From: an uncultured bacterium
Lineage (GTDB): Bacteria > Zhuqueibacterota > QNDG01 > CAYUAG01
Assembly (NCBI GenBank): GCA_964554015.1
Contig: CAZKMO010000001.1
Coordinates: forward strand, 22,756 to 86,755
Direction of reading: 5' to 3'
DNA length: 64,000 bases
Below the pieces are notes generated by a model. The model saw nothing but the letters and a program-made list of their open reading frames with translations, was not told the origin of the DNA and did no database searches. Position 1 is the stretch's first letter, and the number at the start of each line of letters is the position of its first letter. Shown one piece after another: positions 2,828 to 63,191 of the stretch. The position numbers and the translations under genes were made by a program.

Positions 2828-2861
2828 TAATTAATATTAAATGGAGGTTAAGATTACTGTC

Positions 2862-4751: not shown

Positions 4752-4861
4752 GGTTAACCTGAATAAAATTATTAATAAACAGAGTATGCATACAAATATA
4801 TATAATTCATAATGGAAGTAAGTATATATAGTTTAGAAATTAAAAGGAATATTTCCGTATA

Positions 4862-9679: not shown

Positions 9680-9691
9680 AAAAAGGTAACA

Positions 9692-10681
9692 ATGAATATT
9701 TCTGAACGTATACCAAAAATTGAAATACGTAACTTTTTACCCAATCAAGGATTTGCAGTACAGAGAAATAAAATCCTTCGCGGACTGACTGGCAGGAACA
9801 AATATATCTCCAGCATTTTTTTCTATGATGATACAGGATCAAAACTTTTTGAACAAATAACCAGGCTTCCTGAATATTATCCTCCCCGGAAAGAAATGCT
9901 ATTACTTAAAAAAATTACCTCCCTGATTAAAAATGAACTAAAAGATATTGATATAGTTGAATTGGGAAGCGGTGACTGCTCTAAAATTTCCATTCTTTTA
10001 AAATCCGTCCCTCCCCATTTTAGAAAAACCATTCGTTACCTTCCTTTTGACGTATCTATGGGAACGATTGAAAAATCAGCAAAAACACTTGTAAAAAAAT
10101 TCCCCTATATTACCATCCTGGGTATTGTAGCAGATTTTCACACTCAGCTCCATTTAATTCCCCGGGAGAGAAAACGCATATTCTGTTTTTTCGGCAGTAC
10201 AATTGGAAATTTTACTCCTCCCAAAGCGGAAGAATTCATAAGTAATCTGAACAATATCATGAATCCGGGAGAAATGCTGTTACTCAGTTTTGACCTGGTA
10301 AAAGAAAAAGATATTCTGGAAAAAGCATACAATGACAGTCAAAAAATAACTGCAAAGTTTAATCGTAACATTTTAAATGTTGCCAACAGATATGCAAAAA
10401 CCAATTTTGATCCTCAAGACTTTCAGCACCTGGCATTTTATAACCCTCAATGCTCCCGAATTGAAATGCACCTTAAGGCTAAAAGAGACATTACCATTAA
10501 CTCCCCCTATTTAAATCAGAGCAGTATCATCAATAAGGGAGAAACCATCCATACTGAATATTCTCACAAGTTTGCTTTGAATACCATTCAAGCTCTGGTT
10601 GAGGGCAGTCAGCTTACCATTCAAAATATTTTTACTGATAAAAAAAAATGGTTTGCAGTAAGCCAACTCATTAAACAATGA
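9692..10681 (+). CDS. egtD: L-histidine N-alpha-methyltransferase (EgtD/EanA family).
   Basis: The motif FFYDDTGSKLFEQITRLPEYYPPRKE matches the EgtD signature (F-Y-D-x-x-G-S-x-L-F-E-x-I-x-x-L-P-E-Y-Y-P-T-R). The methyltransferase motif ELGSGDCSKI is present. Confidence 0.75.
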   Translation: MNISERIPKIEIRNFLPNQGFAVQRNKILRGLTGRNKYISSIFFYDDTGSKLFEQITRLPEYYPPRKEMLLLKKITSLIKNELKDIDIVELGSGDCSKISILLKSVPPHFRKTIRYLPFDVSMGTIEKSAKTLVKKFPYITILGIVADFHTQLHLIPRERKRIFCFFGSTIGNFTPPKAEEFISNLNNIMNPGEMLLLSFDLVKEKDILEKAYNDSQKITAKFNRNILNVANRYAKTNFDPQDFQHLAFYNPQCSRIEMHLKAKRDITINSPYLNQSSIINKGETIHTEYSHKFALNTIQALVEGSQLTIQNIFTDKKKWFAVSQLIKQ

Positions 10682-10690
10682 AATTCATAT

Positions 10691-11908
10691 ATGTATGATA
10701 TAAATAAAATTCGGGCTGATTTTCCTATTCTGGGGGAAAAAATCTATGATAAGCCATTAGTTTATCTTGATAATGCCGCCACTACCCAAAAACCCCAAAA
10801 GGTGCTTGATGCCATATTCGAATTTTATTCCTCTATAAACAGTAACATTCACCGGGGTGTCCACTTCCTTAGTGAGCAAGCAAGCACTGCTTATGAAGAG
10901 GCAAGAGAAACGGTAAAAAAATACATAAATGCGAAAAAAATTTCAGAAATAATATTTACCCAGGGAACCACTGACTCAATAAACATGGTGGCTGACTCTT
11001 TTGGGAGGGCATGTATAAACCAAGGAGATGAAATTATTATTTCTGAGATGGAGCATCATTCCAATATAGTGCCCTGGCAAATGCTTGGTGAGCATAAGGG
11101 TGCAGTTCTCAAGATAATTCCTATTAACCAAGATGGAACTCTCAACCTGAAAAGATTAAAAACGCTCATTACTGACAAAACCAGACTTATTGCAGTGACC
11201 TATGTATCTAATGTATTGGGAATTATATATCCGGTTAAGAAAATTATCGACGTAGCCCACCTGCGGAATATACCGGTACTGATCGATGGCGCCCAGGCAG
11301 TTCAGCACCGCCCGGTCGATGTTCAAAGTTTAGACTGTGATTTTTTTGCCTTTTCCGGACATAAAATGTATGCCGGAACCGGAATAGGAGTTTTATATGC
11401 CAAGCAAAAATGGCTGGATACCATGCCTCCTTACCGATATGGCGGAGGTATGATTTCCAGCGTAAATTTTGAAAAAACCTCATTTCTAAAACCGCCCCAT
11501 AATTTTGAAGCAGGCACTCCTAATATTGCCGGGGCAGTAAGTCTTAAGGCAGCAATTGAATATATAAATTATATTGGATTAAAAAACATTACTGACCAGG
11601 AAATGAAATTATATAATTATGCCCTGAATAGGCTTAGCCGGTTGCCGGGACTAACTGTATATGGAAAAGCAGAAAACAGGTGTGGAGCACTATCATTTAA
11701 TTTGCATGACATTCATCCCTATGATGCTGGCTCCCTACTGGATAAAATGGGGATTGCCGTGCGCACCGGCAAGCATTGTGCCGAACCCTTAATGAACCGA
11801 TTCAAAATACAGGGATCCATTCGGGCCAGCTTTGCTATGTATAATAATAAACAAGAAGTTGATATTTTAATAGACGGAATAAAAAAAGTACAGCAAATGC
11901 TAAAATAA
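10691..11908 (+). CDS. sufS: Cysteine desulfurase, SufS/CsdA group II (PLP-dependent).
   Basis: The N-terminal DFPIL...YLDNAATTQKP is present. The PLP lysine lies in FSGHKMYAGTGIGVLY. The catalytic Cys loop RTGKHCAEPL is present. Confidence 0.8.
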   Translation: MYDINKIRADFPILGEKIYDKPLVYLDNAATTQKPQKVLDAIFEFYSSINSNIHRGVHFLSEQASTAYEEARETVKKYINAKKISEIIFTQGTTDSINMVADSFGRACINQGDEIIISEMEHHSNIVPWQMLGEHKGAVLKIIPINQDGTLNLKRLKTLITDKTRLIAVTYVSNVLGIIYPVKKIIDVAHLRNIPVLIDGAQAVQHRPVDVQSLDCDFFAFSGHKMYAGTGIGVLYAKQKWLDTMPPYRYGGGMISSVNFEKTSFLKPPHNFEAGTPNIAGAVSLKAAIEYINYIGLKNITDQEMKLYNYALNRLSRLPGLTVYGKAENRCGALSFNLHDIHPYDAGSLLDKMGIAVRTGKHCAEPLMNRFKIQGSIRASFAMYNNKQEVDILIDGIKKVQQMLK

Positions 11909-11910
11909 CC

Positions 11911-12318
11911 ATGAATATTAATAACATTCAGGATCAAATCATAAAAGAATTTTCCGGTTTAGATGACTGGCTGGATAAATATGAACATCTGATTAAATTA
12001 GGAAAATCCCTTAAAATTTCCGATATGGATTTGAAGAAAGAAGAATATCAAATACCAGGATGTCAATCTAACCTTTGGATTAATGTAGAAAAGAGAAATA
12101 ATAAACTATTTATCGCCGCAGACAGCGATGCCCTCATAACCAGAGGAATCATATCTTTATTGCTCAGGGTTTTAAATAATCAATCACCTGATGATATTGT
12201 AAATGCTGATCTCTATTTTATAGATAAAATCGGATTAAGCTCCCACCTCTCACCCACCCGGGCCAATGGCTTGGCATTAATTGTAAAGACGATTAAATCC
12301 CTGGCCCAGAACGGTTAA
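11911..12318 (+). CDS. sufE: SufE-like sulfur acceptor protein.
   Basis: The length of about 135 aa fits the family. The conserved Cys loop IPGCQSNLWI is present. The gene immediately follows sufS. Confidence 0.7.
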   Translation: MNINNIQDQIIKEFSGLDDWLDKYEHLIKLGKSLKISDMDLKKEEYQIPGCQSNLWINVEKRNNKLFIAADSDALITRGIISLLLRVLNNQSPDDIVNADLYFIDKIGLSSHLSPTRANGLALIVKTIKSLAQNG

Positions 12319-14950: not shown

Positions 14951-16861
14951 GTGAAAAAAAAATCTAAAAATATTAATTCTAAATTACCGTTTTCCAGACG
15001 AGAATTCATAAAAAAAACAGCCGGAGCCACTACTGGCTTACTTTTTTCTCCCTTTTTTGTTACAAAATATATAAAAGAACCCCGGAGAGTATCAGACAAT
15101 TCCCGGGTTGTTATGGTCAAGGATGATAGTGCCATTCCTACATCCGTTATTGATGAGAATGTTGTACAGGTTATGATGGATGTTGGTATCTGTGATCTTA
15201 CTGATATCGATAATGTGGGGGAAGCCTGGAAAAGTCTGTTCCCTGATCTCACTTTAAATTCTGTTATTGGCATTAAAGTAAACTGTATTAATAAATCGCT
15301 TTCCAGTCATCCCCGGGTTGCCAATGCCATTGTGCAGGGATTAAAACGTATGACGGTTGAAAATGAATCCTTTCCGGAAAATAATATAATAATCTGGGAT
15401 AGAACTAACCGGGAATTAAGAAATGCAGGATACACTATCAATACTAGTGATACTGGAGTCCGGTGTTTCGGAAGTAACCAAAATGGCGTCGGCTATTCCA
15501 AAAAATCCTATAATATTCATGGCAGCACCCAGAAACTCAGCCGGATCCTCACCGAATCCATTGATTATTTGATCAATCTCTCTGTATTAAAAAATCACGG
15601 AACTGCCGGCGTGACTTTAAGTATGAAAAATCATTACGGCACCTGCCAACAACCAGGACATATACATGGTAACTATTGTAACCCCTTTATACCAGCCTTA
15701 AATGCACTCTCACCCATCCGGGATAAACAAGTTGTTTGTATAAACGATGCCCTTATGGGAATTATTTCAGGGGGACCGGGAGGACCTCCTCAAATCACTC
15801 CCCAAAGTCTGATTCTGAGTACCGATCCTGTAGCTCTGGACAGCATAGGTGCTCAATTACTGGAGGACAACGGATGTAAATCCTTATATCGAGCTGCCTA
15901 TATTCACTCTGCTTCCCAAGAACCATATAATCTTGGTATAGATGATCCGGAGCAAATCGACTTGGTAACCATTACCTCGCCCTCTGTTCCCGGCTCGGTT
16001 TTTCTGGACCAGACCACTGTTACCCAGGGAGAGATGGTCAAGGTGAACTGGTCAGACTGGCCGGGAAAGGTGAACATCGCCCTTTATAAGGATGGCACTT
16101 TCTGGATGTATGCAGTTAAGGTCACAGACAGCAGCGGTACCCTGGATTTGGATACCACTGATTGGGAGATCAGAAATGATTACCAGATTAAGATCATGCT
16201 GCAGGCCAATGAAAATATCAGCCAGTCTTCTAGTACTTTCTCTGTTACCTCTCCATTTTCACCCGGCTCGGTTTCTCTGAACCAGACCACTGTCACCCAG
16301 GGAGAGTGGGTCAAGGTGAACTGGTCAGGCTGGCCGGGAAAGGTGAATATTGCCCTTTATAAGGGCGGCACTTTCTGGATATATGTTGCTAAGGAAGCAG
16401 ACAGCAGCGGTACCCTGAATTTGGATACCACTGATTGGGAGATCAGAGATGACTACCGGATCAAAATCGTTCTTTGTGCGGATGAAAATATCAGTCAATT
16501 CTCAAGTACCTTCTCTGTGGAAGAACCCACCGGGGAAACAGATCCCACCACCATAGAAGAACAAAATGGAGGAAAGATTCCGAAACGATTTCGACTATAT
16601 CAGAATTATCCCAATCCCTTCAATGCCAGCACTATAATTGCTTATCAATTAATGAAGTCATCCTACGTTGATCTGGGCATATACAATGTAAAAGGTTCAT
16701 TATTAAGGAGAATGGTGCATCAGCGACAGAATACTGGATTTCATCGCCTTAGATGGGATGGGACCAATACATTCGGCGTACCAGTTCCCAGTGGAATTTA
16801 TATAGTCCGTCTTACAGTGGATGGATACAGCCAAGCCAGAAAAATGCAGTTGCTGCGTTGA
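14951..16861 (+). CDS. DUF362-domain protein with a Tat signal peptide, two Kre9/KNH-like repeat domains and a T9SS C-terminal sorting domain.
   Basis: The Tat motif SRREFIKK plus a hydrophobic stretch is present. The DUF362-like core (VLKNHGTAGVTLSMKNHYG) is present. Two ~90-aa repeats (VTQGEMVKVNWSDWPGKVNIALYKDGTFW...) are present. The CTD LYQNYPNPFNAST...GIYIVRL is present. Confidence 0.55.
   Translation: MKKKSKNINSKLPFSRREFIKKTAGATTGLLFSPFFVTKYIKEPRRVSDNSRVVMVKDDSAIPTSVIDENVVQVMMDVGICDLTDIDNVGEAWKSLFPDLTLNSVIGIKVNCINKSLSSHPRVANAIVQGLKRMTVENESFPENNIIIWDRTNRELRNAGYTINTSDTGVRCFGSNQNGVGYSKKSYNIHGSTQKLSRILTESIDYLINLSVLKNHGTAGVTLSMKNHYGTCQQPGHIHGNYCNPFIPALNALSPIRDKQVVCINDALMGIISGGPGGPPQITPQSLILSTDPVALDSIGAQLLEDNGCKSLYRAAYIHSASQEPYNLGIDDPEQIDLVTITSPSVPGSVFLDQTTVTQGEMVKVNWSDWPGKVNIALYKDGTFWMYAVKVTDSSGTLDLDTTDWEIRNDYQIKIMLQANENISQSSSTFSVTSPFSPGSVSLNQTTVTQGEWVKVNWSGWPGKVNIALYKGGTFWIYVAKEADSSGTLNLDTTDWEIRDDYRIKIVLCADENISQFSSTFSVEEPTGETDPTTIEEQNGGKIPKRFRLYQNYPNPFNASTIIAYQLMKSSYVDLGIYNVKGSLLRRMVHQRQNTGFHRLRWDGTNTFGVPVPSGIYIVRLTVDGYSQARKMQLLR
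15963..16515 (+). repeat. Direct tandem duplication of about 270 bp, two copies at roughly 85-90% identity, inside the DUF362/T9SS gene.
   Basis: Copy 1 begins near 15963 and copy 2 near 16246. Both encode the SP(S/F)xPGSV(F/S)L(D/N)QTTVTQGE... domain. Confidence 0.8.
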
Positions 16862-17000
16862 GTTGAGTATAATGGTTCTTAAAAGAATTAGCTATAAGGG
16901 GATAGGGAAAATAGAGGATATAAGCAAAAGAAAAAAAATAATTAGCAAAATTTTGTAATAATAGAAGGACATTATCAATCTTGTTTGAAGGAGAAATAAT

Positions 17001-17543
17001 ATGAATCGTAAATATGTTGTTCTGCTGTTTAGCATAATCTTAATTAGTTCTCTTACCTGTTCTAAAAAAAATTCTACCAATCCTGAAATAGTCACCATAA
17101 CCGATTTGCTTCCCCAGGATAATGAAATAAGCGGATGGGTGAGCACAGGAAATACCTGGTGGGCTACCAGCAGCAGTGAATTGAACCAATATATCAATGG
17201 AGAAGAACCCGATTACACTAAATATGGATTTAGGGAAGGAGCCATGCAGAGCTATTCCGGCACTGTATTGGAAAACTCAACTATTATGGAAGTTCGGGTA
17301 TTCGATCAGCAATCAGAGGAAAATGCGCAGGCATTGTTTCAGGAATTAGCTACCCGTTTAGTTAATCCCCTGGTCTGGTCTGAAGCAGGTGAAGAGGCAA
17401 GAATAGAACGATTTTTCCTCTCTCAGAAAATTATCTTCTGGAAATCGAAATATTTCGTATCACTCACTATTGATTCAGGTTTGGATGAGGCATTGAACGT
17501 TCTTAAAACCTTTGCTACCAATATGGATGCAAAAATTTCATAA
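17001..17543 (+). CDS. Hypothetical lipoprotein.
   Basis: The signal peptide ends in LTCS (lipobox). It lies between the two DUF362 genes. A GGAG RBS is present. Confidence 0.4.
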   Translation: MNRKYVVLLFSIILISSLTCSKKNSTNPEIVTITDLLPQDNEISGWVSTGNTWWATSSSELNQYINGEEPDYTKYGFREGAMQSYSGTVLENSTIMEVRVFDQQSEENAQALFQELATRLVNPLVWSEAGEEARIERFFLSQKIIFWKSKYFVSLTIDSGLDEALNVLKTFATNMDAKIS

Positions 17544-17561
17544 TTAAAAAATTGAATCTCC

Positions 17562-18521
17562 ATGCAGAATGAAAATATAAAATTAAAAAATCCCATATCT
17601 CGAAGAGCCTTTCTGGAATACTCGGCCAAATTGGGGAGTGCCCTAACCGCAGGGATGCTTTTCCCAGGATTGCCATCAGAAAGCATCCCCTTATCCCCTT
17701 CTTCACCAGTAGTGGCTGTAGTTAAGGGAACCCCCCCCAACGCAGTCAGCAAAGCCATCGAGCTGGTGGGGGGGATAGGCAGTTTCGTACAACCTGGCAG
17801 TACAGTACTGATTAAACCCAATGTATCTTTTCCTAATTCCAAAACCTGGGGAACCACTACCAGCCCGGAAGTTGTAAAAGCTGTTACCCAGCTTACCCTG
17901 GATGCTGGTGCCCAAAGAGTAATCATTGCAGATAATACCATGCGTAAAACCGATATCTGTTTCCATAAAACTGGTATAATGGAAATGCTTTCTAATATGG
18001 ATAAGGTAAACATCATTCCCATACAACAGGAAAATTTTTTCAGGGAAGTTCCGGTTCCCGGGGGAAAAGCACTCACCAAGGTGAAAATAGCCAAGCTTAT
18101 CCAGCGAGCTGATTTGATTATCAATCTGCCCTGTGCCAAATCTCATTCAGCCACTCAGGTAAGTTTTGGTTTGAAAAACCTGATGGGACTAATCTGGGAT
18201 AGAAGTTATTTACATCAGGGAACTGATCTGCATACTGCCATTGCTGAACTGGCTTTGATAATGCAACCCCAGCTTACCATACTGGATGCCACTCGTGCCC
18301 TGATAACTGCCGGCCCTACCGGTCCGGGCAAAGTGCAGAATTTGAACACCATTGTAGCTAGTACTAATATCTTGGCTGTGGATGCCTATGCCGTAGGCCT
18401 GGCACCCTGGAATAATCGTTTTCTGACCGCAAAAACAGTTAAACATCTTTACCGGGCTTCCCAATTAGGAATTGGAGAGATAAATATTGATAATATGATC
18501 ATCCGCAAAGCTATCCTCTAA
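17562..18521 (+). CDS. DUF362-domain protein with a Tat signal peptide. It is a paralog of 14951..16861.
   Basis: The Tat-like signal ISRRAFLEYSAKLGSALTAG is present. The core VVKGTPPNAVSKAIELVGGIGSFVQPGSTVLIKPNVSF...GLKNLMG aligns with the upstream paralog. Confidence 0.55.
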   Translation: MQNENIKLKNPISRRAFLEYSAKLGSALTAGMLFPGLPSESIPLSPSSPVVAVVKGTPPNAVSKAIELVGGIGSFVQPGSTVLIKPNVSFPNSKTWGTTTSPEVVKAVTQLTLDAGAQRVIIADNTMRKTDICFHKTGIMEMLSNMDKVNIIPIQQENFFREVPVPGGKALTKVKIAKLIQRADLIINLPCAKSHSATQVSFGLKNLMGLIWDRSYLHQGTDLHTAIAELALIMQPQLTILDATRALITAGPTGPGKVQNLNTIVASTNILAVDAYAVGLAPWNNRFLTAKTVKHLYRASQLGIGEINIDNMIIRKAIL

Positions 18522-18576: not shown

Positions 18577-21500
18577 ATTATAAAATCCCTTTCCAAGGTT
18601 ATTTGTACCAGGAATATCTGGCTTTCCTGGTTATTTGTATTTCTGAGCCTATTTCCCGCTTTTTCCCAGGTAAAAAAATACTGGCCTAAACGGCGGTTCC
18701 CCCACCTGGTTGTAAAAGATAAACTCTGGATTGGTACTCCCCGGGGATTATATCAGTATCATGCTGAGGATGACACCTGGACAATATACGGCAAGCACAA
18801 TGGTCTCCCTTCCAACCGTATTCAACTAATTCAATATGACGGAGAATATCTCTGGGTAGTCACCCCCGAAGGTACAGCATTTGGTGATATTCGTCTGAAT
18901 AAATGGCTGGTTTATAATCAAGAAAACGGTCTTCCCAGCAATAAGGTTAATTCCATAGCTTTTCAGGAAGACTATGTATGGGTAGCCACCGACAGGGGAG
19001 CTGCCCGTTTTGATAAACTCATTCAGGAATGGGAACACTTTACCCTTGAAGATGGTCTTCCTGACTCCGTAGTTACAGATGTGATTGTGGAAGAGGATCT
19101 GGTGTATCTTTCCACCTATAAAGGTCTGGTCGAATATGATATAAATTTTGAAAAATGGCGTGTATATCCTATTCTTCATGACAGTATATCCTCGGTAATA
19201 AAATTTATATATCCCACCACAGATTACCTCTGGTTGTTTACTGATCAGGGCCCCCTGAGATTTAACAAACAGCTTCATTCTATTCTTTCCTTCCCCGAAA
19301 ATGATCAACTGAAATTTTCCAACATACAAGACCTGGTGGTTGACAATGAAAAATTTTGGTCTGCCACCACTGCAGGAGTATTTATCTATGATCCGGCCAA
19401 CATTCTCTGGCGTCCATTTCAGGAACAAATTCATCTTCCCGATTCATCAGTAAAAGCTATGGCCTTTAGCCAGGGCAAGCGTTGGTTTGTCACTGAAACC
19501 GGTATAGCAGTATTTGATGAGCAAATAAAAAGCTGGGATTATTATGGGAAAGCACATGGACTCTCCTCCCAACAGTATGACGCCATAGCCACTTTCCGGA
19601 GTCAGGTTTTTCTGATAAATAATTCAACTATTGACTATTATATACCTCAGGAAAATCGCTGGAGAGTATATCCTCTGAAAGATGTAAGCATATTATCACA
19701 GAGAAAAACTCCTTATGTTTCCCTGGATCAGGAAAAGGGAAGTTTTGTACAAATTACACCCAAGGCGCAACTCGGGATCAGCGGCAGCCGTTGGAATTCT
19801 CGTTTTAATTTCTCCCACTCTTTTGATCTGGAGACGGATCAATCCCAAAGCGAAAATGATATAGCTCACCGAAGAGATGTGAAATCTCAGCTGACTCTTC
19901 CTAAAGGACAAACAATTAATGGATTCTATGATGATACAGATTTCAATCAGACCATGTATGGTATTCGATATAAAGGGTTGAAGAAGGATCTGGTGCAGGA
20001 AGTAAATTGGGGAGATATTCGTTATGAACAGGGTAAGACTCATCTGATTCCGTCTATCGGCATATTCGGAGTTTCAGGTCGGTTGGAAACCGGATCCAAA
20101 ACAGAGCAATACGGCCGGAGTCTGGTATCAGCCAAGGTCTGGAGTGGTGAAAAAACAACAGGGCAGGACACTGAATTTTTCACCGGAAATATGCATGAGG
20201 CCCGAATTTCCCTTCGAGATGTCGATTACATCCCCTATACCTATTTTTGCTGGGATACTACTGATACAGGCATTGATCTGGATAAAAACTCGGAACAGAT
20301 CTTTGTTGATGATGGCAATGAACAAACCAATACCCGCAATACGCTGATTGACTTTACCATAGGAGGCATAAAAGGAGATTTCGATAAACTCCTGCCTTTT
20401 GAGGATTATGTTGTTGATCATGATAAAGGTATATTAATGCTGACCAGACCACTATCTCCATCAGCTGTCATGATCCTGAAAGCAAAATCGGCAGGCTTAC
20501 CCTGGGAACGGGTGTTAAAAACTACTGAGAAATCTTCTTATACCATGCTGAATCGATACTTTGTGGACGGAATGAAAATTATTCCTTCCAGTTTCAGCCT
20601 GCAGATTACTGATTCGACTGGAAAGGATTTACCTATTTTCCAATTCGGCCTGGATGGGAATAGAGATGGAAGAGTTGATCCGGAATGGATAGATACCAGA
20701 GAAGGGATTCTGTCTTTTCCCTCCCCCCAACCTTTTCCCCAGGCTGTATATCAGATAGAAAATCCCCTGTCTTCTTTTCTGATGCATATCCAGTTTGAAA
20801 CCGAAATTTCTATTTTTATGTTAAAACATAACCGCTTGATTCGGGGAACGGAGACGGTTACCGTGGATGGGGATATTCTGACCGCAGGGCAAGATTATAT
20901 AATTGATTATACCAGTGGTTCCCTGCTTATTCTTAAGGAAGGAATAGTTGCAGAAGATAGTGAGATAAAAGTAAAGTATGAATTTTACCAGAATTCATCG
21001 GAAAAATTTCATTTAGGCGGAATTGGATTCGGACCTTCGGATAATATACTGATGGAAGTGAATGGATTTGCTTATGATGAAGAAAACTCGGGAAGTGATT
21101 CTGGATCCATGCAAGGTATTAATTTTTTTGGGGAATTTAAAGGGAAAATAAAGGGATTGGATTTCAAATTAACTCCTGAACTTGCCCAGAGTCTGGGAAG
21201 GGAAAGCAAGGGCAGCAGTTTTCATATCAGAACCGATATAAGTTCACAACGGATACGACTGTATTCGGAATATGAAAAATATGATTCCGAATTTAAAAAT
21301 CTTTTTCCCAGAAAATTCCAGTTAGGTGAAATGGAGAAGCGGTTAGCTGCAGGAGTAACTGTATTACCCCTAGATTTTCTGGATATTACAGGTCAATGGT
21401 CTCAGCAGCAAACCCCAAAAACTATTTCGGGAAAACATAATAAGGAAGAAAACCTGAGTGGAAAACTTTTACTGAATAAAAAACAACTGCCAGCTTTATC

Positions 21501-22773
21501 CCTTTCTTTAAGACACCGTACTCTTAAGACAGAAGAATATCAATCCTCCAAGCAAACCGTAAAGGGAGAAGTGGAATATAAGATTCCTGCCTCAATCTTG
21601 GATATGCTTTCCCTTAAATCCATACGTATTTACGGAGTATGGAGAAAAAGCTGGGAGTCCAGGGATAGTACTAATACTCATGCTGATCATTCCCCTAATA
21701 GATTATATGACAACCGCTATTTTCGCATTGATTGTTCTCCTGTAAATCTTATACAGATTAATGCTTATTATCGGGGAGAAAGCGTAACCATGCAGAATCT
21801 CGATAACCGGGGAAAACGTCCCTTAACCCGGCAGCAGAAATGGTTTTTGGATGCAACTGTAGACAGGATTCAGGGAATTAACCTGAATGTACGTTACCAG
21901 AGTGAAATTGCTCAAAGGTTTGATTTATCACCTTCCGGGATTTCTTCTATAACCCTGCAACGACTACTGCAGTCAAACATTCGTTTTTTCCCCGGTCAGT
22001 GGGTACGATTCTTATCGCCTTTTACCTTTGAAATAAATCTTAATCCCGGCTGGAAAGGAACCCTGGAAGATAATACCCGGAAATTGAAGTGGAAGGAAAA
22101 ATTATGGCAGCTAACCGAATCAAAAGCCCTGAATGTAGGGGAAGATAATATGCTGTATCAATTACGGGGTGAGTGGAGACCCACTGCTTCTCTCTTTCTA
22201 TATACCGGACTGGAATTTTTTCGTTTTGACTCCAAACATCTGGATAGCAGATCTCAAACCAGAGGTAAACGGTTTCATAATAAAGTTGAATACCAACCAT
22301 CCCCTCAATCCCTGATCACTCTGCAATATTTTTACACTGAAGATAATATCGATCTCTATAAACATACCATCAGATACAATCCTATGCTCTGGGTGGAGCA
22401 TCGATGGAACGACAAACTGCAGACTAAAATCAATCTGGCCTATCTGCAAGAAGATAAAACCTTAGTAAGCATAAAAGAAATTACATCCAATTTTTCTCCC
22501 TTGGTAGGAATAACTTATCGATGGCGTCATTCTGAAACCGGTAAAATAAGAGCAGAAGTCCGCAATGACCTTTCTTCCTCATTTTATCAGCATTCATCTT
22601 CGAATTTGAATACAGCTGTTAACAGTTATACCAATACCCTGGCTTTGGATATTTACCCGACTTCAATCTTTATTCTCCGTTTCCGTTTATCCACCATATT
22701 CAGGGATAAACTGGATTCTGTAAAAGATAATCTGTCCAATTCCCTGGAATTAAGATTGACAGCACAATTTTAA
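18577..22773 (+). CDS. Very large secreted protein of about 1400 aa. It has N-terminal two-component-regulator-propeller (Reg_prop-like) repeats and a long C-terminal region with outer-membrane beta-barrel character ending ...RLTAQF. The start codon is uncertain.
   Basis: The ORF track calls GTG 19081. The same frame is open back to the stop at 18574-18576. That upstream stretch encodes a signal peptide (RNIWLSWLFVFLSLFPAFSQ) and further propeller repeats (YVWVATDRGAARFD, LWIGTPRGLYQY). There is no ATG/GTG/TTG in that frame upstream of 19081. Confidence 0.5.
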   Translation: MIKSLSKVICTRNIWLSWLFVFLSLFPAFSQVKKYWPKRRFPHLVVKDKLWIGTPRGLYQYHAEDDTWTIYGKHNGLPSNRIQLIQYDGEYLWVVTPEGTAFGDIRLNKWLVYNQENGLPSNKVNSIAFQEDYVWVATDRGAARFDKLIQEWEHFTLEDGLPDSVVTDVIVEEDLVYLSTYKGLVEYDINFEKWRVYPILHDSISSVIKFIYPTTDYLWLFTDQGPLRFNKQLHSILSFPENDQLKFSNIQDLVVDNEKFWSATTAGVFIYDPANILWRPFQEQIHLPDSSVKAMAFSQGKRWFVTETGIAVFDEQIKSWDYYGKAHGLSSQQYDAIATFRSQVFLINNSTIDYYIPQENRWRVYPLKDVSILSQRKTPYVSLDQEKGSFVQITPKAQLGISGSRWNSRFNFSHSFDLETDQSQSENDIAHRRDVKSQLTLPKGQTINGFYDDTDFNQTMYGIRYKGLKKDLVQEVNWGDIRYEQGKTHLIPSIGIFGVSGRLETGSKTEQYGRSLVSAKVWSGEKTTGQDTEFFTGNMHEARISLRDVDYIPYTYFCWDTTDTGIDLDKNSEQIFVDDGNEQTNTRNTLIDFTIGGIKGDFDKLLPFEDYVVDHDKGILMLTRPLSPSAVMILKAKSAGLPWERVLKTTEKSSYTMLNRYFVDGMKIIPSSFSLQITDSTGKDLPIFQFGLDGNRDGRVDPEWIDTREGILSFPSPQPFPQAVYQIENPLSSFLMHIQFETEISIFMLKHNRLIRGTETVTVDGDILTAGQDYIIDYTSGSLLILKEGIVAEDSEIKVKYEFYQNSSEKFHLGGIGFGPSDNILMEVNGFAYDEENSGSDSGSMQGINFFGEFKGKIKGLDFKLTPELAQSLGRESKGSSFHIRTDISSQRIRLYSEYEKYDSEFKNLFPRKFQLGEMEKRLAAGVTVLPLDFLDITGQWSQQQTPKTISGKHNKEENLSGKLLLNKKQLPALSLSLRHRTLKTEEYQSSKQTVKGEVEYKIPASILDMLSLKSIRIYGVWRKSWESRDSTNTHADHSPNRLYDNRYFRIDCSPVNLIQINAYYRGESVTMQNLDNRGKRPLTRQQKWFLDATVDRIQGINLNVRYQSEIAQRFDLSPSGISSITLQRLLQSNIRFFPGQWVRFLSPFTFEINLNPGWKGTLEDNTRKLKWKEKLWQLTESKALNVGEDNMLYQLRGEWRPTASLFLYTGLEFFRFDSKHLDSRSQTRGKRFHNKVEYQPSPQSLITLQYFYTEDNIDLYKHTIRYNPMLWVEHRWNDKLQTKINLAYLQEDKTLVSIKEITSNFSPLVGITYRWRHSETGKIRAEVRNDLSSSFYQHSSSNLNTAVNSYTNTLALDIYPTSIFILRFRLSTIFRDKLDSVKDNLSNSLELRLTAQF

Positions 22774-38694: not shown

Positions 38695-41600
38695 CTATTT
38701 AATGACTGCAATCTTACAAATGACTGCTTTCTCTCTGGAACCGGCATCTGCCTTAACCCGGCAGAAATAAACCCCGCTTTCCTTTCCGGAAATATCCCAC
38801 CTAATTTCATTTTCCGTGTTACCCATGCCGGGGCCGGAAAAGGAATCCACTAATTCCCCCGCCAGATCATATATTTCTATGGATACCTTAGCCTGCTTTT
38901 CCAGACGGTACCTGATATAAGTAAAATTCCCTTTTGCCGGGTTGGGATAGTTATACACCAGATTATCAGGCATAAGATCGGACTTCTCCGGAACAGCAAT
39001 TGGTTTTACTCTGCTCATCCCGGAATTGGCTGCATCGTAAAGATAACTTCCCCAAGGAATCAATTCGGCTGAATAACTGCCGGGAAGATCCCATACAAAC
39101 AACTCTCCCCTTTCCGAAACCGCTGCCATCTCCAGGTCGCCATCCTTATCCAGATCCAACAAAGTAGGTGAACCCGGAATTGATCCGCCCGTGGTCAGGG
39201 GAAAACCGGTTACCATTTCTCCGGAATAATTCCAGGCTTCAATATTCCCTTCAGAGTTGGCAACCACAATATCAATCTTATCATCTCCATTAACATCTCC
39301 CAGCAGGCAGGAAGACAACTCCGCTGTACGGGGAAAATAGGGAAAAGGTGAATAGTCGACATAACTGGCATTGGCGTTAAATCCGTATATCTTATCCTGC
39401 GCTGTAATTACAATCTCACTTATTCCATCCCCGTCAATATCTCCGGCAGCAGGGAAAGAGAGAGAGGAACCGGTTATTTTATCTTCTGTAGTATAATAAT
39501 CATCCTCAAATCTGTCATAAATCAGCAGATTTCCGCTCCGGGAAACAACTGCAGTCAAAGGATAATCTTGTTCTCCCAGATAAGCCGATATGGGATTATG
39601 GAGTTCTCCAGCTTCTGAAAACTGTTTTTCTTTTATCAGAGAACCGGCGTTATCTATAAATATTAGATTAGAGGAAACAGTAACCGCAATAGCCCCCTCC
39701 TCATCAGCCTGACAGATACCGGTGATAGCTTCCTCTCCTGCCTGGTAATCCCATTTAAGAGATCCGGTGCTGGTGAGACTGAAAACTTTCCCTTCTCTGG
39801 TACCAAATATCAAACAGGTATCCGAGGGTGATGTAATTATGTGCAGATTGGTGGAAATCGAAGTTTGATCATTATTCCAGGAAAATACCTTGGTTGCTGC
39901 CAGGCCCCCGCCATTTCCCCCTTCCATACCCCAGCCGGACACGGTTCCGCTCTTATCAGCTATTATAATTTCATCCCGAAAATCTCCATTGATATCAAAC
40001 ACCAGGGGAGAAATGGATATTGTTTCCGAACATTTGATTAATAAAGGAACCTTATAAAAAATAGTATCATGGGTAACCGTCACCCGAAAACCGGTAGAAT
40101 CGGAGGAAAAGGGAGTACCATCCTGGTTCCAGGCAAATATTGCGTGGTCTGAAGCAATGATCAGTTCCCGATTTCCTTCTCCGTTCAGGTCTCCTGTCAG
40201 TACCGGAGAAACCCAGGTGGAGCAGCTCTGAAAATAAGAGGGGAAACCTGGCTGCAGCATATCGGTGGTAAGGGAAAAACTCATCACTGTATCTCTGGGG
40301 GAAAAATCAGTGATCACAATATGGGAATTACCACCCTGGTTTGATCGGGAGTTAGGGAAACTGAAGGGAGTAAACATCACCTTAGTTGTATCATTTACTT
40401 CTTGATTTATCTCATTGTCCTGATACCAGGCATCCTGTAAAACACCGTATTCTGAACCATAACCATAAGAAGTATAACTATATAATTCACCGATATCCTG
40501 AGCCCCATCTGCCTCCTCCAGGTCAACCCCCCGGTGATTCTTATCCGCATTGATCCTATTTTCTTCTATGGTTCTGCGGATCACCTCTTCATCAATATGC
40601 CAGATCAATATACCTGAGCCGGGAAGGCCGTAATCATACTCTTCCACTGAAGTTATAACTCCATACCTTTCCATCTCAATAGTTCCATCGGATCGGAATA
40701 TTACTTGTCCGCCGTTAGCGGTTCTTCCGGTAGTTATACTGTCTCCGTTGGTATCATACTGGCGGTTTTCAATCAGAAAATATTCATGATCATTAATGGG
40801 CACTTTATAAATTTTATTGGATTCAGTTGCTTTGGAGCAGGCTATTTTTATATTATTCTGGTGAGTAATTGTTATTGGTTTTTCCCAACCCATTAATACT
40901 TTGCTGAAAGCACAGGGCTCGGCTGGTATCAATCCTATATAATTTCCGGATCCCTGATCCATTAATCCCCACATACCAATACCGGAATGACCGGTCTCCG
41001 TATTCCAGAGAGCAGGCAGACCCAGCTGGAATCCATACATAATACTCATAGTACCCAAAAGACCTATTTCATAAAAATATTGACTGTCTTCCTGATTTTG
41101 GGTTTCAGGAAGGATAATTCCTTCTTGTACCCGGAAACTGCTGTTCTCAACTTCAATACCCGGAAAATTCGGATCTCCTGGGGCAAGATATCTGCGTAAT
41201 TTATCCAGATCTAAAAAGGCGGAAGAAATATCATGAGGTGTGGGATCATAATCAAAAGCAAAATCATTTCCTACTCCGGCATGAAAAATAATATAGGAAT
41301 CATAATGGGAGAACTCAGCACCTGCTGCATCAGCAGCATGGATTGCATCACCAAAAAGTTCAACCAATCCTCTATCAACTCCGGTATCACTATCTTCTGA
41401 GCTATAATAGGACATGGCATGATTAAGTTTCAGTATTTCCGGAAATACTGTACCACTTAAAATCAGCTTTCCTCCGGAAACCGCTTTATAGTAGGAACTC
41501 AGGGCTGTAAGTTGATTTTTAAAATAAGATTGGTTATGAGGTGACGGATCAATGACAGTATCTTCAACGGTGAGCATAAATGTACCATCTCCAGTAGTAA

Positions 41601-41859
41601 GGGAATCATCTTTTTTAATAAATTCAACCATAAAGGCCAAAATATTAACTGTATCACTATTATTAATTGTAAAATTTCTATTCTTTTCCGAGAAAAAGAC
41701 TTTTTCTCCCTTCCAGGAAAGAAAAGATGATTTCACTAAATTTTTTCTGGAAATAGAGCATTTTTTAAAATCGTATTTTATATTATTAACCGAAGCAGAA
41801 ACGATGCTTGAGAATATAATGAAAATATTGATAAACAATTTACAGATACTACTTTTCAT
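38695..41859 (-). CDS. Large FG-GAP/VCBS-repeat surface protein with a T9SS C-terminal sorting domain.
   Basis: There is a signal peptide. Repeated FDINGDFRDEIII, GDIDGDGISEIVI, GDVNGDDKIDIVV and LDLDKDGDLEM (FG-GAP calcium loops) are present. The CTD YNYPNPAKGNFTYIRY...GVYFCRV is present. Confidence 0.6.
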   Translation of the reverse strand: MKSSICKLFINIFIIFSSIVSASVNNIKYDFKKCSISRKNLVKSSFLSWKGEKVFFSEKNRNFTINNSDTVNILAFMVEFIKKDDSLTTGDGTFMLTVEDTVIDPSPHNQSYFKNQLTALSSYYKAVSGGKLILSGTVFPEILKLNHAMSYYSSEDSDTGVDRGLVELFGDAIHAADAAGAEFSHYDSYIIFHAGVGNDFAFDYDPTPHDISSAFLDLDKLRRYLAPGDPNFPGIEVENSSFRVQEGIILPETQNQEDSQYFYEIGLLGTMSIMYGFQLGLPALWNTETGHSGIGMWGLMDQGSGNYIGLIPAEPCAFSKVLMGWEKPITITHQNNIKIACSKATESNKIYKVPINDHEYFLIENRQYDTNGDSITTGRTANGGQVIFRSDGTIEMERYGVITSVEEYDYGLPGSGILIWHIDEEVIRRTIEENRINADKNHRGVDLEEADGAQDIGELYSYTSYGYGSEYGVLQDAWYQDNEINQEVNDTTKVMFTPFSFPNSRSNQGGNSHIVITDFSPRDTVMSFSLTTDMLQPGFPSYFQSCSTWVSPVLTGDLNGEGNRELIIASDHAIFAWNQDGTPFSSDSTGFRVTVTHDTIFYKVPLLIKCSETISISPLVFDINGDFRDEIIIADKSGTVSGWGMEGGNGGGLAATKVFSWNNDQTSISTNLHIITSPSDTCLIFGTREGKVFSLTSTGSLKWDYQAGEEAITGICQADEEGAIAVTVSSNLIFIDNAGSLIKEKQFSEAGELHNPISAYLGEQDYPLTAVVSRSGNLLIYDRFEDDYYTTEDKITGSSLSFPAAGDIDGDGISEIVITAQDKIYGFNANASYVDYSPFPYFPRTAELSSCLLGDVNGDDKIDIVVANSEGNIEAWNYSGEMVTGFPLTTGGSIPGSPTLLDLDKDGDLEMAAVSERGELFVWDLPGSYSAELIPWGSYLYDAANSGMSRVKPIAVPEKSDLMPDNLVYNYPNPAKGNFTYIRYRLEKQAKVSIEIYDLAGELVDSFSGPGMGNTENEIRWDISGKESGVYFCRVKADAGSREKAVICKIAVIK

Positions 41860-42015
41860 AATTACTATTCCTAGAAAAAGTTACACCTTGCCATCTTAAT
41901 GCATACTGAATAAACTGCCCGCCAAAAACACAAAATTTTTCTATCTAAATTATACCTATAATTTAAATTATTTGATGTATTCTGTATTTTTGGCAGGCAA
42001 ATATAAACTCGGGTT

Positions 42016-43074
42016 CTAAAATCCGAGACTAAGAGAAAATCTCATGGTATCAGAGAGGGGATGTCCTTTTTCAGCAGCCACATAAGCAAAATCAAACCTG
42101 TAGGTATTATATTGAAGACCGGCACCAAAGGTAGGAAACTTTACTTTGCCAATTTCATCATAATAGTAGCCGGTTCTTAAAAATATCATATCACTATAAA
42201 CATATTCTAATCCCATACAGGTAATAAGCTCTTGCAATTGTTCATCTATGGGTTTATCTGTCCAACTGGTAAAAATGGCTTTATAAAAAGCATCCGATTC
42301 ATTCCCTTTCTTGACTACCATAAGTTTATTAGTATCAAGAGTTAAAGTTAGTCTATTATATTTTTTATCCAAGACTTTGTAGGCAAATCCCAATTTTAAA
42401 TTTGTCGGCAAGGGATCTGCTTGGGCAGCATCAACATAAGCTATTTTGGGGCCCATATTGGCAAGATTTGCTCCAAATGATAATCCTTTGATAAATCCAA
42501 TTTTCCAGAGAACTCCCACATCAAAAGCAAAGGCATTACCAGAACCACTGCCCTTCTCGGTTCCGACATCAACCCAATCAGGAGCAAGCATACTTTGGAT
42601 GTAACGTACATTAACACCCAATCCAACATTATCGGTTACCTTGGTTGCATACCCCAGGGTTATAGCAAAATCATAACTTTGGAATCTGCCTCTTTCTTCC
42701 CCGGTTTCACCTGTCCATACCTGCTCTCCCATATTCAGATAGGTAACATTAGCAGCGATAGTCCCTCCCAAGCTCTCCACATAATGCCGGTAAGAAGCAA
42801 ATTCATAAAACATATCATCAACTAATCCCGGAAGCCATTTACAATGCATAAAAATAATCTCTTTACCTTTCAGAAAGGCAAGTCCACCCGGATTCCAATA
42901 TATGGCTGTTGCATCATCGGCAAGGGCTACAAATGATTCTCCCATACCCGAAGCCCGGGCTCCTGGTGAAATTAATAGAAACAGCACCGCAGCTTCACTT
43001 ACAGCAAATACATTAGATGCCATAATCAAGCTAAATACGAAAACCAATAAAATTATTGTTAATTTTTTCATCAA
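42016..43074 (-). CDS. FadL/OMPP1-family outer-membrane beta-barrel protein. It may be a T9SS PorV-like shuttle.
   Basis: There is a signal peptide. The N-terminal hallmark GARASGMGESFVALADDATAIYWNPGGLAF is present. It ends in aromatic ...SLGF. It is adjacent to T9SS cargo genes. Confidence 0.5.
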   Translation of the reverse strand: MMKKLTIILLVFVFSLIMASNVFAVSEAAVLFLLISPGARASGMGESFVALADDATAIYWNPGGLAFLKGKEIIFMHCKWLPGLVDDMFYEFASYRHYVESLGGTIAANVTYLNMGEQVWTGETGEERGRFQSYDFAITLGYATKVTDNVGLGVNVRYIQSMLAPDWVDVGTEKGSGSGNAFAFDVGVLWKIGFIKGLSFGANLANMGPKIAYVDAAQADPLPTNLKLGFAYKVLDKKYNRLTLTLDTNKLMVVKKGNESDAFYKAIFTSWTDKPIDEQLQELITCMGLEYVYSDMIFLRTGYYYDEIGKVKFPTFGAGLQYNTYRFDFAYVAAEKGHPLSDTMRFSLSLGF

Positions 43075-56771: not shown

Positions 56772-56787
56772 TTTAAGCAATAAGTAC

Positions 56788-61529: not shown

Positions 61530-61583
61530 TGTCTTACCCTTTATTTATTTTTTTTAAGTTGACCTTTTATAATAAATTGATAC

Positions 61584-62045: not shown

Positions 62046-62071
62046 CCCAAGAACCTATACAATAGATATTA

Positions 62072-62938: not shown

Positions 62939-63178
62939 TTACTCATCCTGAATTCCACCTGAATGGAAAATCTGTCGGATATTATCAATATTGATATTAG
63001 AAGCAGCTCTTTTGTTTTCTTCAACTATTCTTTGATAAATTTCTTCTCTATACACAGTTATTTCTCTGGGAGCTTTAATACCAACCTTAACTCCTCTTCC
63101 CTGAACAGAGAGAATAGTGAGTTTTATATTCTCTCCTAAAAGAATACTTTCTCCAACTTTTCTTGCTAATACAAGCAC
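62939..63178 (-). CDS. csrA: Carbon storage regulator CsrA.
   Basis: The sequence [48 protein letters not shown] is a near-canonical CsrA sequence. Confidence 0.9.
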
Positions 63179-63191
63179 CGTTCACTCCATT

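What the first reader, a model, noticed from the sequence alone, without database searches (positions are those of the whole stretch)
14951..18521. Two Tat-signal DUF362 paralogs flanking a lipoprotein; one paralog also bears a T9SS C-terminal sorting domain
Both DUF362 proteins start with twin-arginine motifs (SRREFIKK and ISRRAFLEY plus a hydrophobic stretch). This implies export of a folded and possibly cofactor-loaded protein. The first paralog additionally ends with a canonical Por-secretion CTD, which directs outer-membrane translocation and surface attachment. T9SS cargo is normally Sec-dependent, so a Tat plus T9SS combination would be unusual. It suggests a cofactor-containing enzyme displayed on the cell surface. 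The function of DUF362 is unknown.
Basis: partly seen in the sequence, partly recalled or inferred. Interest (0 to 1): 0.55.

Follow-up and report, generated by a model that had tools for sequence, protein, structure and literature searches.

The report
Tat-exported enzyme with T9SS sorting tail
Two distantly related enzymes of unknown function carry signals for export in the folded state, and one also carries the tail that sends proteins through the type IX secretion system, a route so far described only for proteins exported unfolded.

Summary
ORFs 14951-16861 and 17562-18521 are both DUF362 proteins and flank a DUF6599 lipoprotein. Both begin with [S]-R-R-x-F-[IL]. This motif is kept in 114/120 and 108/120 of their closest homologues, and their h-regions are weakly hydrophobic. 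The first protein ends in a T9SS type A C-terminal domain (CTD; TIGR04183 32.7 bits, cut-off 23). PorV and two Sec-type CTD cargo lie in the same window.

The Tat+CTD pairing is a family trait. All 28 complete CTD-bearing orthologues found in genome loci have the RR motif. Two orthologues (WOR-3, Zixibacteria) pass the curated Tat and CTD models together. Orthologues in Desulfobacterota, Spirochaetota and one Rhodothermales MAG keep Tat but lack the CTD.

The cassette extends to 22773 with a 1398-aa outer-membrane protein whose middle region is homologous to the T9SS translocon SprA.

Reviews and a T9SS cargo predictor treat cargo as Sec-only. I rate this a new variant of a known kind, supported by sequence evidence only.

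The parts
14951..16861 (+). P1 (F1 subfamily). A 636-aa protein made of a Tat signal, a DUF362 domain, two Ig-like repeats and a T9SS type A CTD.
   Evidence: ORF. Pfam and NCBIfam hits. 629 homologues, most about 440 aa with DUF362 plus FlgD_ig or Por_Secre_tail.
14951..15061 (+). P1 signal peptide: a 14-residue basic n-region, the motif S15-R-R-E-F-I-K (nt 14993-15013), a weakly hydrophobic h-region and a basic c-region (K..K..RR).
   Evidence: Sequence. Motif conserved in 114/120 homologues. Kyte-Doolittle score 1.34. TIGR01409 14.0 bits, below the 16.7 cut-off.
15266..15853 (+). DUF362 domain of P1 (aa 106-301). It carries K109, N111, D150, N209, K214, H216, K226, N227, H239, D266 and D297, which are shared as conserved positions with the P3 family.
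   Evidence: Pfam. Joint alignment.
15980..16537 (+). Two tandem repeats of about 90 aa (79% identical), probably Ig-like spacers. No Pfam match. They are absent from most (~440-aa) homologues.
   Evidence: Homologue lengths.
16607..16858 (+). T9SS type A C-terminal sorting domain (aa 553-636).
   Evidence: TIGR04183 32.7 bits against cut-off 23. PF13860 32.8 bits, PF18962 23.7 bits.
17001..17543 (+). DUF6599 lipoprotein (180 aa). Invariant Cys20 at nt 17058-17060. Fold resembles the PknH sensor domain and Mog1/PsbP proteins.
17562..18521 (+). P3 (F3 subfamily). A 319-aa protein made of a Tat signal (S13-R-R-A-F-L-E, nt 17598-17618) and a DUF362 domain (aa 82-278, nt 17805-18395). No CTD, so it is predicted to be periplasmic.
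   Evidence: Model pLDDT 91.6. LarA-like fold.
18577..22773 (+). Fourth gene of the cassette ('BIG', 1398 aa). Probable ATT start at 18577 with a Sec-type signal. N-terminal Reg_prop beta-propeller, middle region homologous to SprA/Sov, and a C-terminal region that looks like a beta-barrel.
   Evidence: start codon; 48% identity to the syntenic Latescibacter gene; 4a2l E 4.7e-33; hhalign probability 99.8%, E 2.7e-29 to an SprA-family protein; weak BBP2 hit.
42016..43074 (-). PorV-family T9SS outer-membrane shuttle protein. It shows that this organism has T9SS parts. It is not part of the cassette.
   Evidence: PF19572 109.5 bits. NF033709 325 bits against cut-off 90, and NF033710 249.1 bits against cut-off 250.
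38695..41859 (-). Control cargo: a T9SS-dependent M6-like protein with a type A CTD and an ordinary Sec signal (MKSSICKLFINIFIIFSSIVSA).
   Evidence: Kyte-Doolittle score 2.6.

Best explanation
P1 and P3 are two subfamilies of extracytoplasmic DUF362 enzymes with a LarA-like fold.

Proposed pathway:
1. Both proteins fold in the cytoplasm and probably take up a cofactor there.
2. Both cross the inner membrane through the Tat pathway.
3. P3 stays in the periplasm.
4. P1 carries a T9SS type A C-terminal domain. PorV and the T9SS translocon recognise it and carry the already folded protein across the outer membrane, where it is displayed on the cell surface or released.

The genes form a conserved cassette with a DUF6599 lipoprotein and an SprA-related outer-membrane protein.

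Shown here:
- the domain architecture;
- Tat-type signals conserved across both families;
- a CTD that passes the curated model;
- T9SS parts in the window;
- the LarA-like fold;
- conserved gene order across phyla, with the CTD gained on a Tat-exported ancestor.

Inferred:
- actual Tat dependence;
- cofactor loading;
- signal-peptide cleavage;
- T9SS transit and the final location;
- the catalytic activity. My best guess is a hydride-transfer or redox reaction on an extracytoplasmic, perhaps sugar-derived, substrate.
For: Tat signal:
- Both families have the consensus [ST/D]-R-R-x-F-[LI]-[KRD]. RR is present in every motif-bearing member and F in 97-100%.
- The h-regions score 1.46 +/- 0.30 and 1.49 +/- 0.27. 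The lipoprotein signals of the same cassette score 2.80. The window's BIG signal scores 2.2 and its other CTD cargo 2.6.
- TIGR01409 matches 26/54 P3 orthologues at E <= 0.1 and passes its cut-off in six F1 orthologues.
- Of 21 non-DUF362 CTD proteins in the same loci, 20 lack the motif. These include the DUF6599+CTD fusions.

CTD and T9SS:
- TIGR04183 32.7 bits against cut-off 23.
- PorV and two further CTD cargo lie in the window.

The combination:
- 28 of 32 F1+CTD ORFs in the genome loci have the RR motif. The other four are cut by a locus end.
- The L018 (WOR-3) and L010 (Zixibacteria) orthologues pass both curated cut-offs.
- CTD-less but Tat-positive orthologues occur in Desulfobacula, Desulfatitalea, Spirochaetota, Poribacteria and one Rhodothermales MAG.

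Fold:
- The top 19 Foldseek hits are all LarA-type.
- DUF362 and DUF2088 (the Pfam family that holds LarA) are in the same Pfam clan (PMC11770544).
- An ungapped motif, H-x5-S-x-G-x-K, matches LarA H174/S180/G182/K184.

Compatibility: T9SS moves folded proteins (PMC9251779).

Cassette:
- Gene order is shared.
- BIG co-occurs with CTD-bearing F1 in 16/23 loci, against 9/60 other loci (Fisher p = 3.6e-6).
Against: - The window's own proteins fall short of the curated Tat model (14.0 bits against 16.7 for P1; no hit for P3).
- Pfam PF18962 is below its gathering score for P1.
- No clear A-x-A cleavage site follows either h-region, so either protein might stay anchored in the inner membrane.
- No tatA/tatC, sprA, porU or larBCE genes are in the 64 kb window.
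- Profile comparison of DUF362 with LarA is not significant (E 0.36 and 0.29). The second alignment does not pair the lysines. LarA His108 aligns with Met in P3. The LarA C-terminal domain is missing.
- P1 of this window has Tyr317 where 96% of its family, and all of the P3 family, have His.
- The loci in the Fisher test are related by descent and some flanks are cut, so the p-value overstates independence.
- There are no experimental data of any kind.
Confidence: 0.7

Rival explanations
1. The RR motifs are not used for Tat targeting. Both proteins are ordinary Sec substrates, and P1 is a conventional Sec-then-T9SS cargo.
For: TIGR01409 is below its cut-off for P1 and absent for P3. All 102 experimentally verified T9SS cargo used to design T9GPred fit a Sec-only rule (PMC10515386). 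No Tat genes are in the window.
Against: RR and F are conserved as strongly as catalytic residues across more than 200 homologues at 35-70% identity, whereas ordinary signal peptides drift. The h-region hydrophobicity is about half that of Sec signals in the same operon. Orthologues pass TIGR01409. Other CTD cargo in the same genomes lack the motif.
Confidence: 0.1
2. The C-terminal domain of P1 is only a structural Ig-like (FlgD-type) module. P1, like P3, remains in the periplasm or tethered to the inner membrane.
For: Pfam scores FlgD_ig above its threshold and Por_Secre_tail below. No obvious signal-peptidase site follows the signal. Fibrobacterota and Desulfobacterota orthologues work without a CTD.
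Against: TIGR04183 passes its cut-off. The domain sits at the extreme C-terminus. The tail shows NYPNPF and KMQLLR, which I recognise as CTD motifs. In these data the CTD appears on F1 in FCB-type lineages (WOR-3, Zixibacteria, LCP-89, Latescibacter) and is absent from the Desulfobacterota, Spirochaetota and Poribacteria orthologues. PorV and other CTD cargo are in the window. An SprA-related gene is linked to CTD-bearing F1.
Confidence: 0.1
3. Tat is used because the proteins fold fast or oligomerise, not because of a cofactor. The DUF362 domains are cofactor-free binding proteins or enzymes.
For: No cofactor-synthesis genes lie nearby. The residue-level match to the LarA cofactor site is not statistically supported. 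The LarA C-terminal domain is absent.
Against: [quoted passage not shown] His, Lys and His are invariant at LarA-like spacing in both subfamilies. In about 55 of 80 related loci the F3 gene is directly followed, often with a 4-nt overlap, by a membrane polyferredoxin gene. This points to redox chemistry.
Confidence: 0.2

Closest known systems
Classical T9SS cargo (gingipains, SprB, chitinase ChiA; here the M6-like protein at 38695-41859)
   Same: An N-terminal signal plus a type A C-terminal sorting domain recognised by PorV/SprA. The cargo crosses the outer membrane folded.
   Different: Known cargo carry Sec signals (PMC9251779, PMC8047123, PMC10515386). P1 and all its complete CTD-bearing orthologues carry a twin-arginine signal.
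Tat-dependent type II secretion substrates (for example Pseudomonas aeruginosa phospholipases PlcH/PlcN)
   Same: Two-step secretion in which a folded Tat substrate is passed to an outer-membrane secretion system. The abstract of PMC4899797 states that some Tat-exported proteins are secreted further. The specific examples are from my own knowledge.
   Different: The outer-membrane step here is T9SS, signalled by a discrete C-terminal domain, not T2SS.
LarA lactate racemase and LarA homologues (DUF2088, nickel-pincer nucleotide enzymes; PDB 5HUQ, 9EIA, 7S91, 9Q3J, 4NAR)
   Different: No significant sequence match. No LarA C-terminal domain. LarA His108 is not conserved. LarA carries no export signal that I know of, whereas these proteins are exported. 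Cofactor binding is untested.
NapGH-like quinol dehydrogenase and the dual Sec-Tat polyferredoxin 'PFD' of delta proteobacterium MLMS-1 (PMC5449189)
   Same: In most related loci the F3 gene is directly followed by a membrane polyferredoxin. It has CxxxCP motifs, four CxxCxxCxxxC motifs and, in some members, an internal SRRGF motif. This suggests a periplasmic redox partner for DUF362.
   Different: No such gene is in this window. The link is by gene neighbourhood in relatives only.
SprA/Sov, the T9SS outer-membrane translocon (TIGR04189)
   Same: BIG residues 390-831 align with an SprA-family protein at hhalign probability 99.8%. All five second-tier homologues tested hit TIGR04189, three of them above its cut-off.
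   Different: BIG is 1398 aa against about 2300 aa. It scores only 31 bits on TIGR04189 (cut-off 200). It has an N-terminal Reg_prop propeller, and its C-terminal half shows no SprA match.

Membership tests
Twin-arginine (Tat) signal peptide | Consensus S/T-R-R-x-F-L-K near the N-terminus | tested here: met
   P1 has SRREFIK at aa 15-21. P3 has SRRAFLE at aa 13-19. The consensus is quoted in the PMC3383694 abstract.
Twin-arginine (Tat) signal peptide | Motif conserved among orthologues | tested here: met
   114/120 and 108/120 homologues. R, R and F are invariant columns.
Twin-arginine (Tat) signal peptide | h-region less hydrophobic than in Sec signals | tested here: met
   Kyte-Doolittle scores of 1.34 (P1) and 1.18 (P3), against 2.88, 2.6 and 2.22 for Sec or lipoprotein signals in the window.
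Twin-arginine (Tat) signal peptide | Curated model TIGR01409 at or above its cut-off (16.7 bits) | tested here: not met
   P1 scores 14.0 bits and P3 gives no hit at E <= 0.1. Orthologues do pass: L008, L053, L067, L011, L018 and L010. 26/54 match at E <= 0.1.
Twin-arginine (Tat) signal peptide | Tat translocase genes in the same genome, and export that depends on them | not testable with these tools
   Only 64 kb is available and it holds no tatA or tatC. No experiments are possible.
T9SS type A C-terminal sorting domain | TIGR04183 at or above its cut-off, at the extreme C-terminus | tested here: met
   32.7 bits against 23, over aa 553-631 of 636.
T9SS type A C-terminal sorting domain | Pfam PF18962 at or above its gathering score | tested here: not met
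   23.7 bits against 27. The overlapping PF13860 scores 32.8 against 27.
T9SS type A C-terminal sorting domain | T9SS machinery in the organism | tested here: met
   PorV-family gene at 42016-43074. Two further CTD cargo in the window. SprA, PorU and PorZ were not seen in the window.
DUF362 (PF04015) | Pfam model above its gathering score (24 bits) | tested here: met
   P1 72.2 bits and P3 163.3 bits.
LarA / nickel-pincer nucleotide enzyme superfamily | LarA-type fold | tested here: met
LarA / nickel-pincer nucleotide enzyme superfamily | Sequence membership (DUF2088 / LarA profile) | tested here: not met
   No PDB sequence hit. hhalign E 0.36 and 0.29.
LarA / nickel-pincer nucleotide enzyme superfamily | Cofactor-tethering Lys184, Ni ligand His200, catalytic His108 and His174 | tested here: inconclusive
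   pairs P3 H195 with H174 and K205 with K184, with identical 10-residue spacing. H218 may correspond to H200. H108 aligns with Met127. The alignment is not significant and differs. No structural superposition was available.
LarA / nickel-pincer nucleotide enzyme superfamily | LarB, LarC and LarE cofactor-synthesis genes in the genome | not testable with these tools
   None in the window. The rest of the genome was not available.
SprA/Sov translocon (for the downstream gene) | TIGR04189 at or above its cut-off (200 bits) | tested here: not met
   31.4 bits over aa 754-802 only.
SprA/Sov translocon (for the downstream gene) | Homology to bona fide SprA-family proteins | tested here: met
   hhalign probability 99.8%, E 2.7e-29 to P0411, which scores 315 bits on TIGR04189.
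Bacterial lipoprotein (for the middle gene) | Lipobox with an invariant Cys after the h-region | tested here: inconclusive
   Cys20 is invariant in 26 sequences. However, positions -3 to -1 (S-L-T) are not the canonical L-[AS]-[GA]. No lipoprotein predictor was available.

The most novel reading that the evidence does not exclude
The four genes form a self-contained envelope module. Tat-exported LarA-like enzymes that carry a nickel-pincer-type (or other cytoplasmically built) cofactor are passed to a dedicated, shortened SprA-type outer-membrane channel encoded next to them. This would be a cargo-specific branch of the T9SS fed by Tat. It would place hydride-transfer or redox chemistry on the cell surface. 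In relatives that chemistry would be wired to the quinol pool through a NapGH-like polyferredoxin.
Probability: 0.15. Interest if true: 0.85.

Novelty: new variant of a known kind. Interest (0 to 1): 0.62.

Why it matters
T9SS cargo are described, and computationally filtered, as Sec substrates. A widespread family that pairs a conserved Tat signal with a T9SS sorting domain would have three consequences.
- It would show that the T9SS, like the T2SS, can be fed by the folded-protein export pathway.
- It would mean that current cargo predictors discard real cargo.
- It would extend T9SS cargo to enzymes that may carry a preassembled cofactor.

It also gives DUF362 a concrete structural lead, namely a LarA-like fold with conserved His, Lys and His. 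This bears on whether nickel-pincer or related cofactors are used outside the LarA family. Finally, it points to an unannotated SprA-related outer-membrane protein family linked to this cargo.

Tried and rejected
- A profile of the P3 family against PDB sequences gave no relevant hit.
- hhalign of DUF362 profiles against a three-sequence LarA alignment was not significant and was partly inconsistent. The active-site equivalence is therefore kept as a lead only.
- An exact look-up of P1 in the contig index found nothing.
- The promoter and terminator scan was no better than shuffles for terminators and uninformative for operon structure.
- Pfam scans of all 43 other large ORFs tested in the window found no Tat, Lar, SprA or PorU genes.
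- The internal repeat of P1 has no Pfam match.
- Literature searches for Tat combined with T9SS cargo found only general reviews and the T9GPred rule. One search was rejected for syntax.
- A later start codon for P1 (Met55) was considered and rejected. The RR-containing N-terminus is conserved at the protein level in homologues such as P0004, and a CTD protein needs a signal.
- The idea that the C-terminal domain is a flagellar FlgD domain was rejected on its position, on TIGR04183 and on the distribution across lineages.
- The idea that BIG is a generic porin was set aside. Only a sub-threshold BBP2 hit supports it, whereas the SprA homology is strong.
- The polyferredoxin seen in relatives was sought in the window and is absent.

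Full report
**What is there**

Three co-directional ORFs fill 14951-18521.
- P1 (14951-16861, 636 aa, GTG start) contains DUF362 (PF04015, 72.2 bits, aa 106-301). Its C-terminal domain hits TIGR04183, the T9SS type A sorting domain, at 32.7 bits against a cut-off of 23. It also hits Pfam FlgD_ig at 32.8 bits and Por_Secre_tail at 23.7 bits, both with a gathering score of 27.
- Between the two domains lie two repeats of about 90 aa that are 79% identical and have no Pfam match.
- The middle ORF (17001-17543, 180 aa) is a borderline DUF6599 (26.7 bits against 27). Cys20, right after a strongly hydrophobic N-terminus, is invariant in 26 homologues.
- P3 (17562-18521, 319 aa) is a clear DUF362 (163.3 bits).
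- P1 and P3 share only 22% identity. Each has its own orthologues at 45-70% identity, so they represent two subfamilies, here called F1 and F3.

**Tat signals**

- P1 reads MKKKSKNINSKLPF-SRREFIK-KTAGATTGLLFSPFFV-TKYIKEPRR. P3 reads MQNENIKLKNPI-SRRAFLE-YSAKLGSALTAGMLFPGL.
- GTG 14951 is the first start codon after the upstream in-frame stop. The RR-bearing N-terminus is conserved at the protein level in homologues such as P0004.
- Among the 120 best homologues of each protein, 114 and 108 carry RR-x-[F]-[LI] near the N-terminus. Most of the rest are truncated gene calls.
- The family consensus is [ST/D]-R-R-x-F-[LI]-[KRD], which is the canonical S/T-R-R-x-F-L-K.
- In a 54-sequence alignment of the P3 family, R14, R15 and F17 are invariant, on a par with the putative catalytic residues.
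- The most hydrophobic 13-residue stretch after the motif averages 1.46-1.49 on the Kyte-Doolittle scale. P1 scores 1.34 and P3 1.18. The DUF6599 lipoprotein signals score 2.80, another T9SS cargo in the window 2.6, and the downstream outer-membrane protein 2.2.
- The curated model TIGR01409 is sub-threshold for P1 (14.0 against 16.7) and silent for P3. It matches 26 of 54 P3 orthologues at E <= 0.1 and passes its cut-off in six F1 orthologues.

**T9SS context**

- The window encodes a PorV-family protein at 42016-43074 (PF19572 109.5 bits; NF033709 325 bits).
- It also encodes two other CTD proteins. One is a T9SS-dependent M6-like protein (NF052323, 642.8 bits) with a textbook Sec signal.
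- T9SS parts and ordinary Sec-type cargo therefore exist in the same organism.

**The combination is a family trait**

- A scan of one genome per species found 582 relatives of P3, and 80 loci were fetched.
- I built HMMs for F1, F3, the CTD, DUF6599 and the downstream protein and ran them on all ORFs of these loci.
- The cassette F1-DUF6599-F3 recurs in WOR-3, Zixibacteria, LCP-89, Stahlbacteria, Fibrobacterota, Poribacteria, a Rhodothermales MAG, Spirochaetota and Desulfobacterota. In the Eisenbacteria loci the order is DUF6599-F3-BIG, with F1 downstream in one.
- Of 32 F1 ORFs with a CTD, 28 have the RR motif. The other four are cut by a locus end.
- The WOR-3 (L018) and Zixibacteria (L010) orthologues pass TIGR01409 and TIGR04183 together.
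- Orthologues in Desulfobacula, Desulfatitalea, Spirochaetota and the Rhodothermales MAG pass TIGR01409 but have no CTD.
- Of 21 CTD proteins in these loci that are not DUF362, 20 lack the motif. These include DUF6599+CTD fusions, which have Sec-type signals.
- The simplest reading is that a Tat-exported periplasmic enzyme acquired a T9SS sorting domain in lineages that have a T9SS.

**What DUF362 is**

- The top 19 Foldseek hits are the same family.
- DUF362 and LarA's DUF2088 belong to one Pfam clan (PMC11770544).
- Both subfamilies keep invariant Lys, Asn, Asp, Lys-x-His, Lys-Asn, His and Asp residues.
- The P3 stretch H195-SATQV-S-F-G-L-K205 lines up without gaps with LarA H174-FFAGF-S-G-G-R-K184, where K184 tethers the nickel-pincer nucleotide. 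A further invariant His (H218) lies 13 residues on, against 16 in LarA.
- Limits: the profile comparisons are not significant (E 0.36 and 0.29), a second alignment differs, LarA His108 has no counterpart, and the LarA C-terminal domain is absent. A cytoplasmically inserted cofactor is a reasonable explanation for Tat dependence but is not shown.
- The F1 family also has three or four conserved cysteines next to these motifs.

**The rest of the cassette**

- In some relatives DUF6599 is itself fused to a CTD, and in two cases to a concanavalin-like lectin domain.
- Directly downstream, an ORF that the ORF lister starts at 19081 continues in frame back to 18577. There an ATT codon follows an AAGGA box and opens a Sec-type signal.
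- This 1398-aa protein is 48% identical to the gene at the same position in a Latescibacter MAG.
- Its N-terminus is a Reg_prop propeller like the glycan-sensing domains of Bacteroides hybrid two-component systems (4a2l, E 4.7e-33).
- Residues 390-831 are homologous to SprA/Sov. This rests on a local TIGR04189 hit, second-tier homologues that are SprA-family proteins, and hhalign probability 99.8% with E 2.7e-29.
- The gene accompanies CTD-bearing F1 in 16 of 23 loci, against 9 of 60 others. The loci are not independent.
- In about 55 of the 80 genome loci, but not in this window, F3 is followed, often with a 4-nt overlap, by a membrane polyferredoxin. That protein resembles the NapH-NapG fusion shown to be inserted by Sec and Tat together (PMC5449189). 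This hints at redox chemistry.

**Mechanism proposed**

- Shown: the architecture, conserved Tat-type signals, a valid CTD, T9SS parts, the LarA-like fold and the conserved cassette.
- Inferred:
  - folding and cofactor loading in the cytoplasm;
  - Tat export of both proteins;
  - periplasmic residence of P3;
  - PorV/SprA-type transport of folded P1 to the surface, with the two Ig-like repeats acting as a stalk.
- T9SS is known to move folded proteins (PMC9251779), so the handover is mechanistically plausible. It parallels Tat-fed type II secretion.

**Novelty**

- Reviews and summary tables give Sec as the only inner-membrane route for T9SS cargo (PMC9251779, PMC8047123, PMC7073777).
- T9GPred excludes proteins with a Tat signal on the basis of 102 verified cargo (PMC10515386).
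- Four searches of the paper library found no report of Tat-dependent T9SS cargo. Subscription literature was not covered.
- I rate this a new variant of a known kind.

**Limits**

- No signal-peptide predictor was available and no whole genome could be examined.
- No structural superposition could be made.
- No experiment was possible.

Noticed in passing
window 18577-22773 (+): The ORF lister starts this gene at GTG 19081. The frame is open back to an ATT at 18577, preceded by AAGGA and followed by a Sec-type signal. The 1398-aa product combines a Reg_prop beta-propeller with an SprA/Sov-homologous region. It is an unannotated, shortened SprA relative that is linked to the DUF362 cassette in many FCB-type genomes.
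   Followed up: yes
L055:3446-5062, L014:11071-12402, L012:2874-4388, L008:3029-4741 and about 50 other loci: In most relatives the F3-type DUF362 gene is followed directly by a membrane polyferredoxin of about 540 aa, often with a 4-nt overlap. It has four CxxCxxCxxxC motifs, several CxxxCP motifs and sometimes an internal SRRGF motif. It resembles the NapH-NapG fusion shown to be inserted by Sec and Tat together (PMC5449189). It is absent from this window.
   Followed up: partly
L016:2450-3250, L010:6638-7948, L048:6266-8098, L061:6178-8004, L071:4590-6500: DUF6599 domains fused to a T9SS CTD, two of them also to a Laminin_G_3 lectin-like domain, all with Sec-type signals. The partner lipoprotein family is therefore also sent to the cell surface in some lineages.
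   Followed up: partly
window 15899-15901 (P1 residue 317): P1 of this window has Tyr where 96% of its subfamily and all of the P3 subfamily have His. This may affect activity.
   Followed up: no
window 38695-43074 (-): A PorV-family gene lies next to a 1054-aa T9SS-dependent M6-like inactivated metalloprotease (NF052323, 642.8 bits) with FG-GAP repeats and a type A CTD. A further CTD protein with Kelch repeats runs off the window start (39-722).
   Followed up: partly
window 8357-12318 (+): A triple-rhodanese protein (440 aa), a histidine-specific SAM methyltransferase (Methyltransf_33, 336 bits), a class V aminotransferase/cysteine desulfurase and SufE lie in a row. From memory this resembles the anaerobic ergothioneine pathway (EanB/EanA) with sulfur donors.
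   Followed up: no
window 1568-6822 (+): A cluster of GH10, apiosidase-like (with DUF5060) and GH88 glycoside hydrolases. The organism degrades plant or uronic-acid-containing polysaccharides. No direct link to the DUF362 cassette was established.
   Followed up: no
window 55741-63668 (-): A dense run of response-regulator, hybrid histidine-kinase and Hpt genes, followed by FliW. G+C falls to 27-35% and GC skew is strongly negative towards the window end.
   Followed up: no
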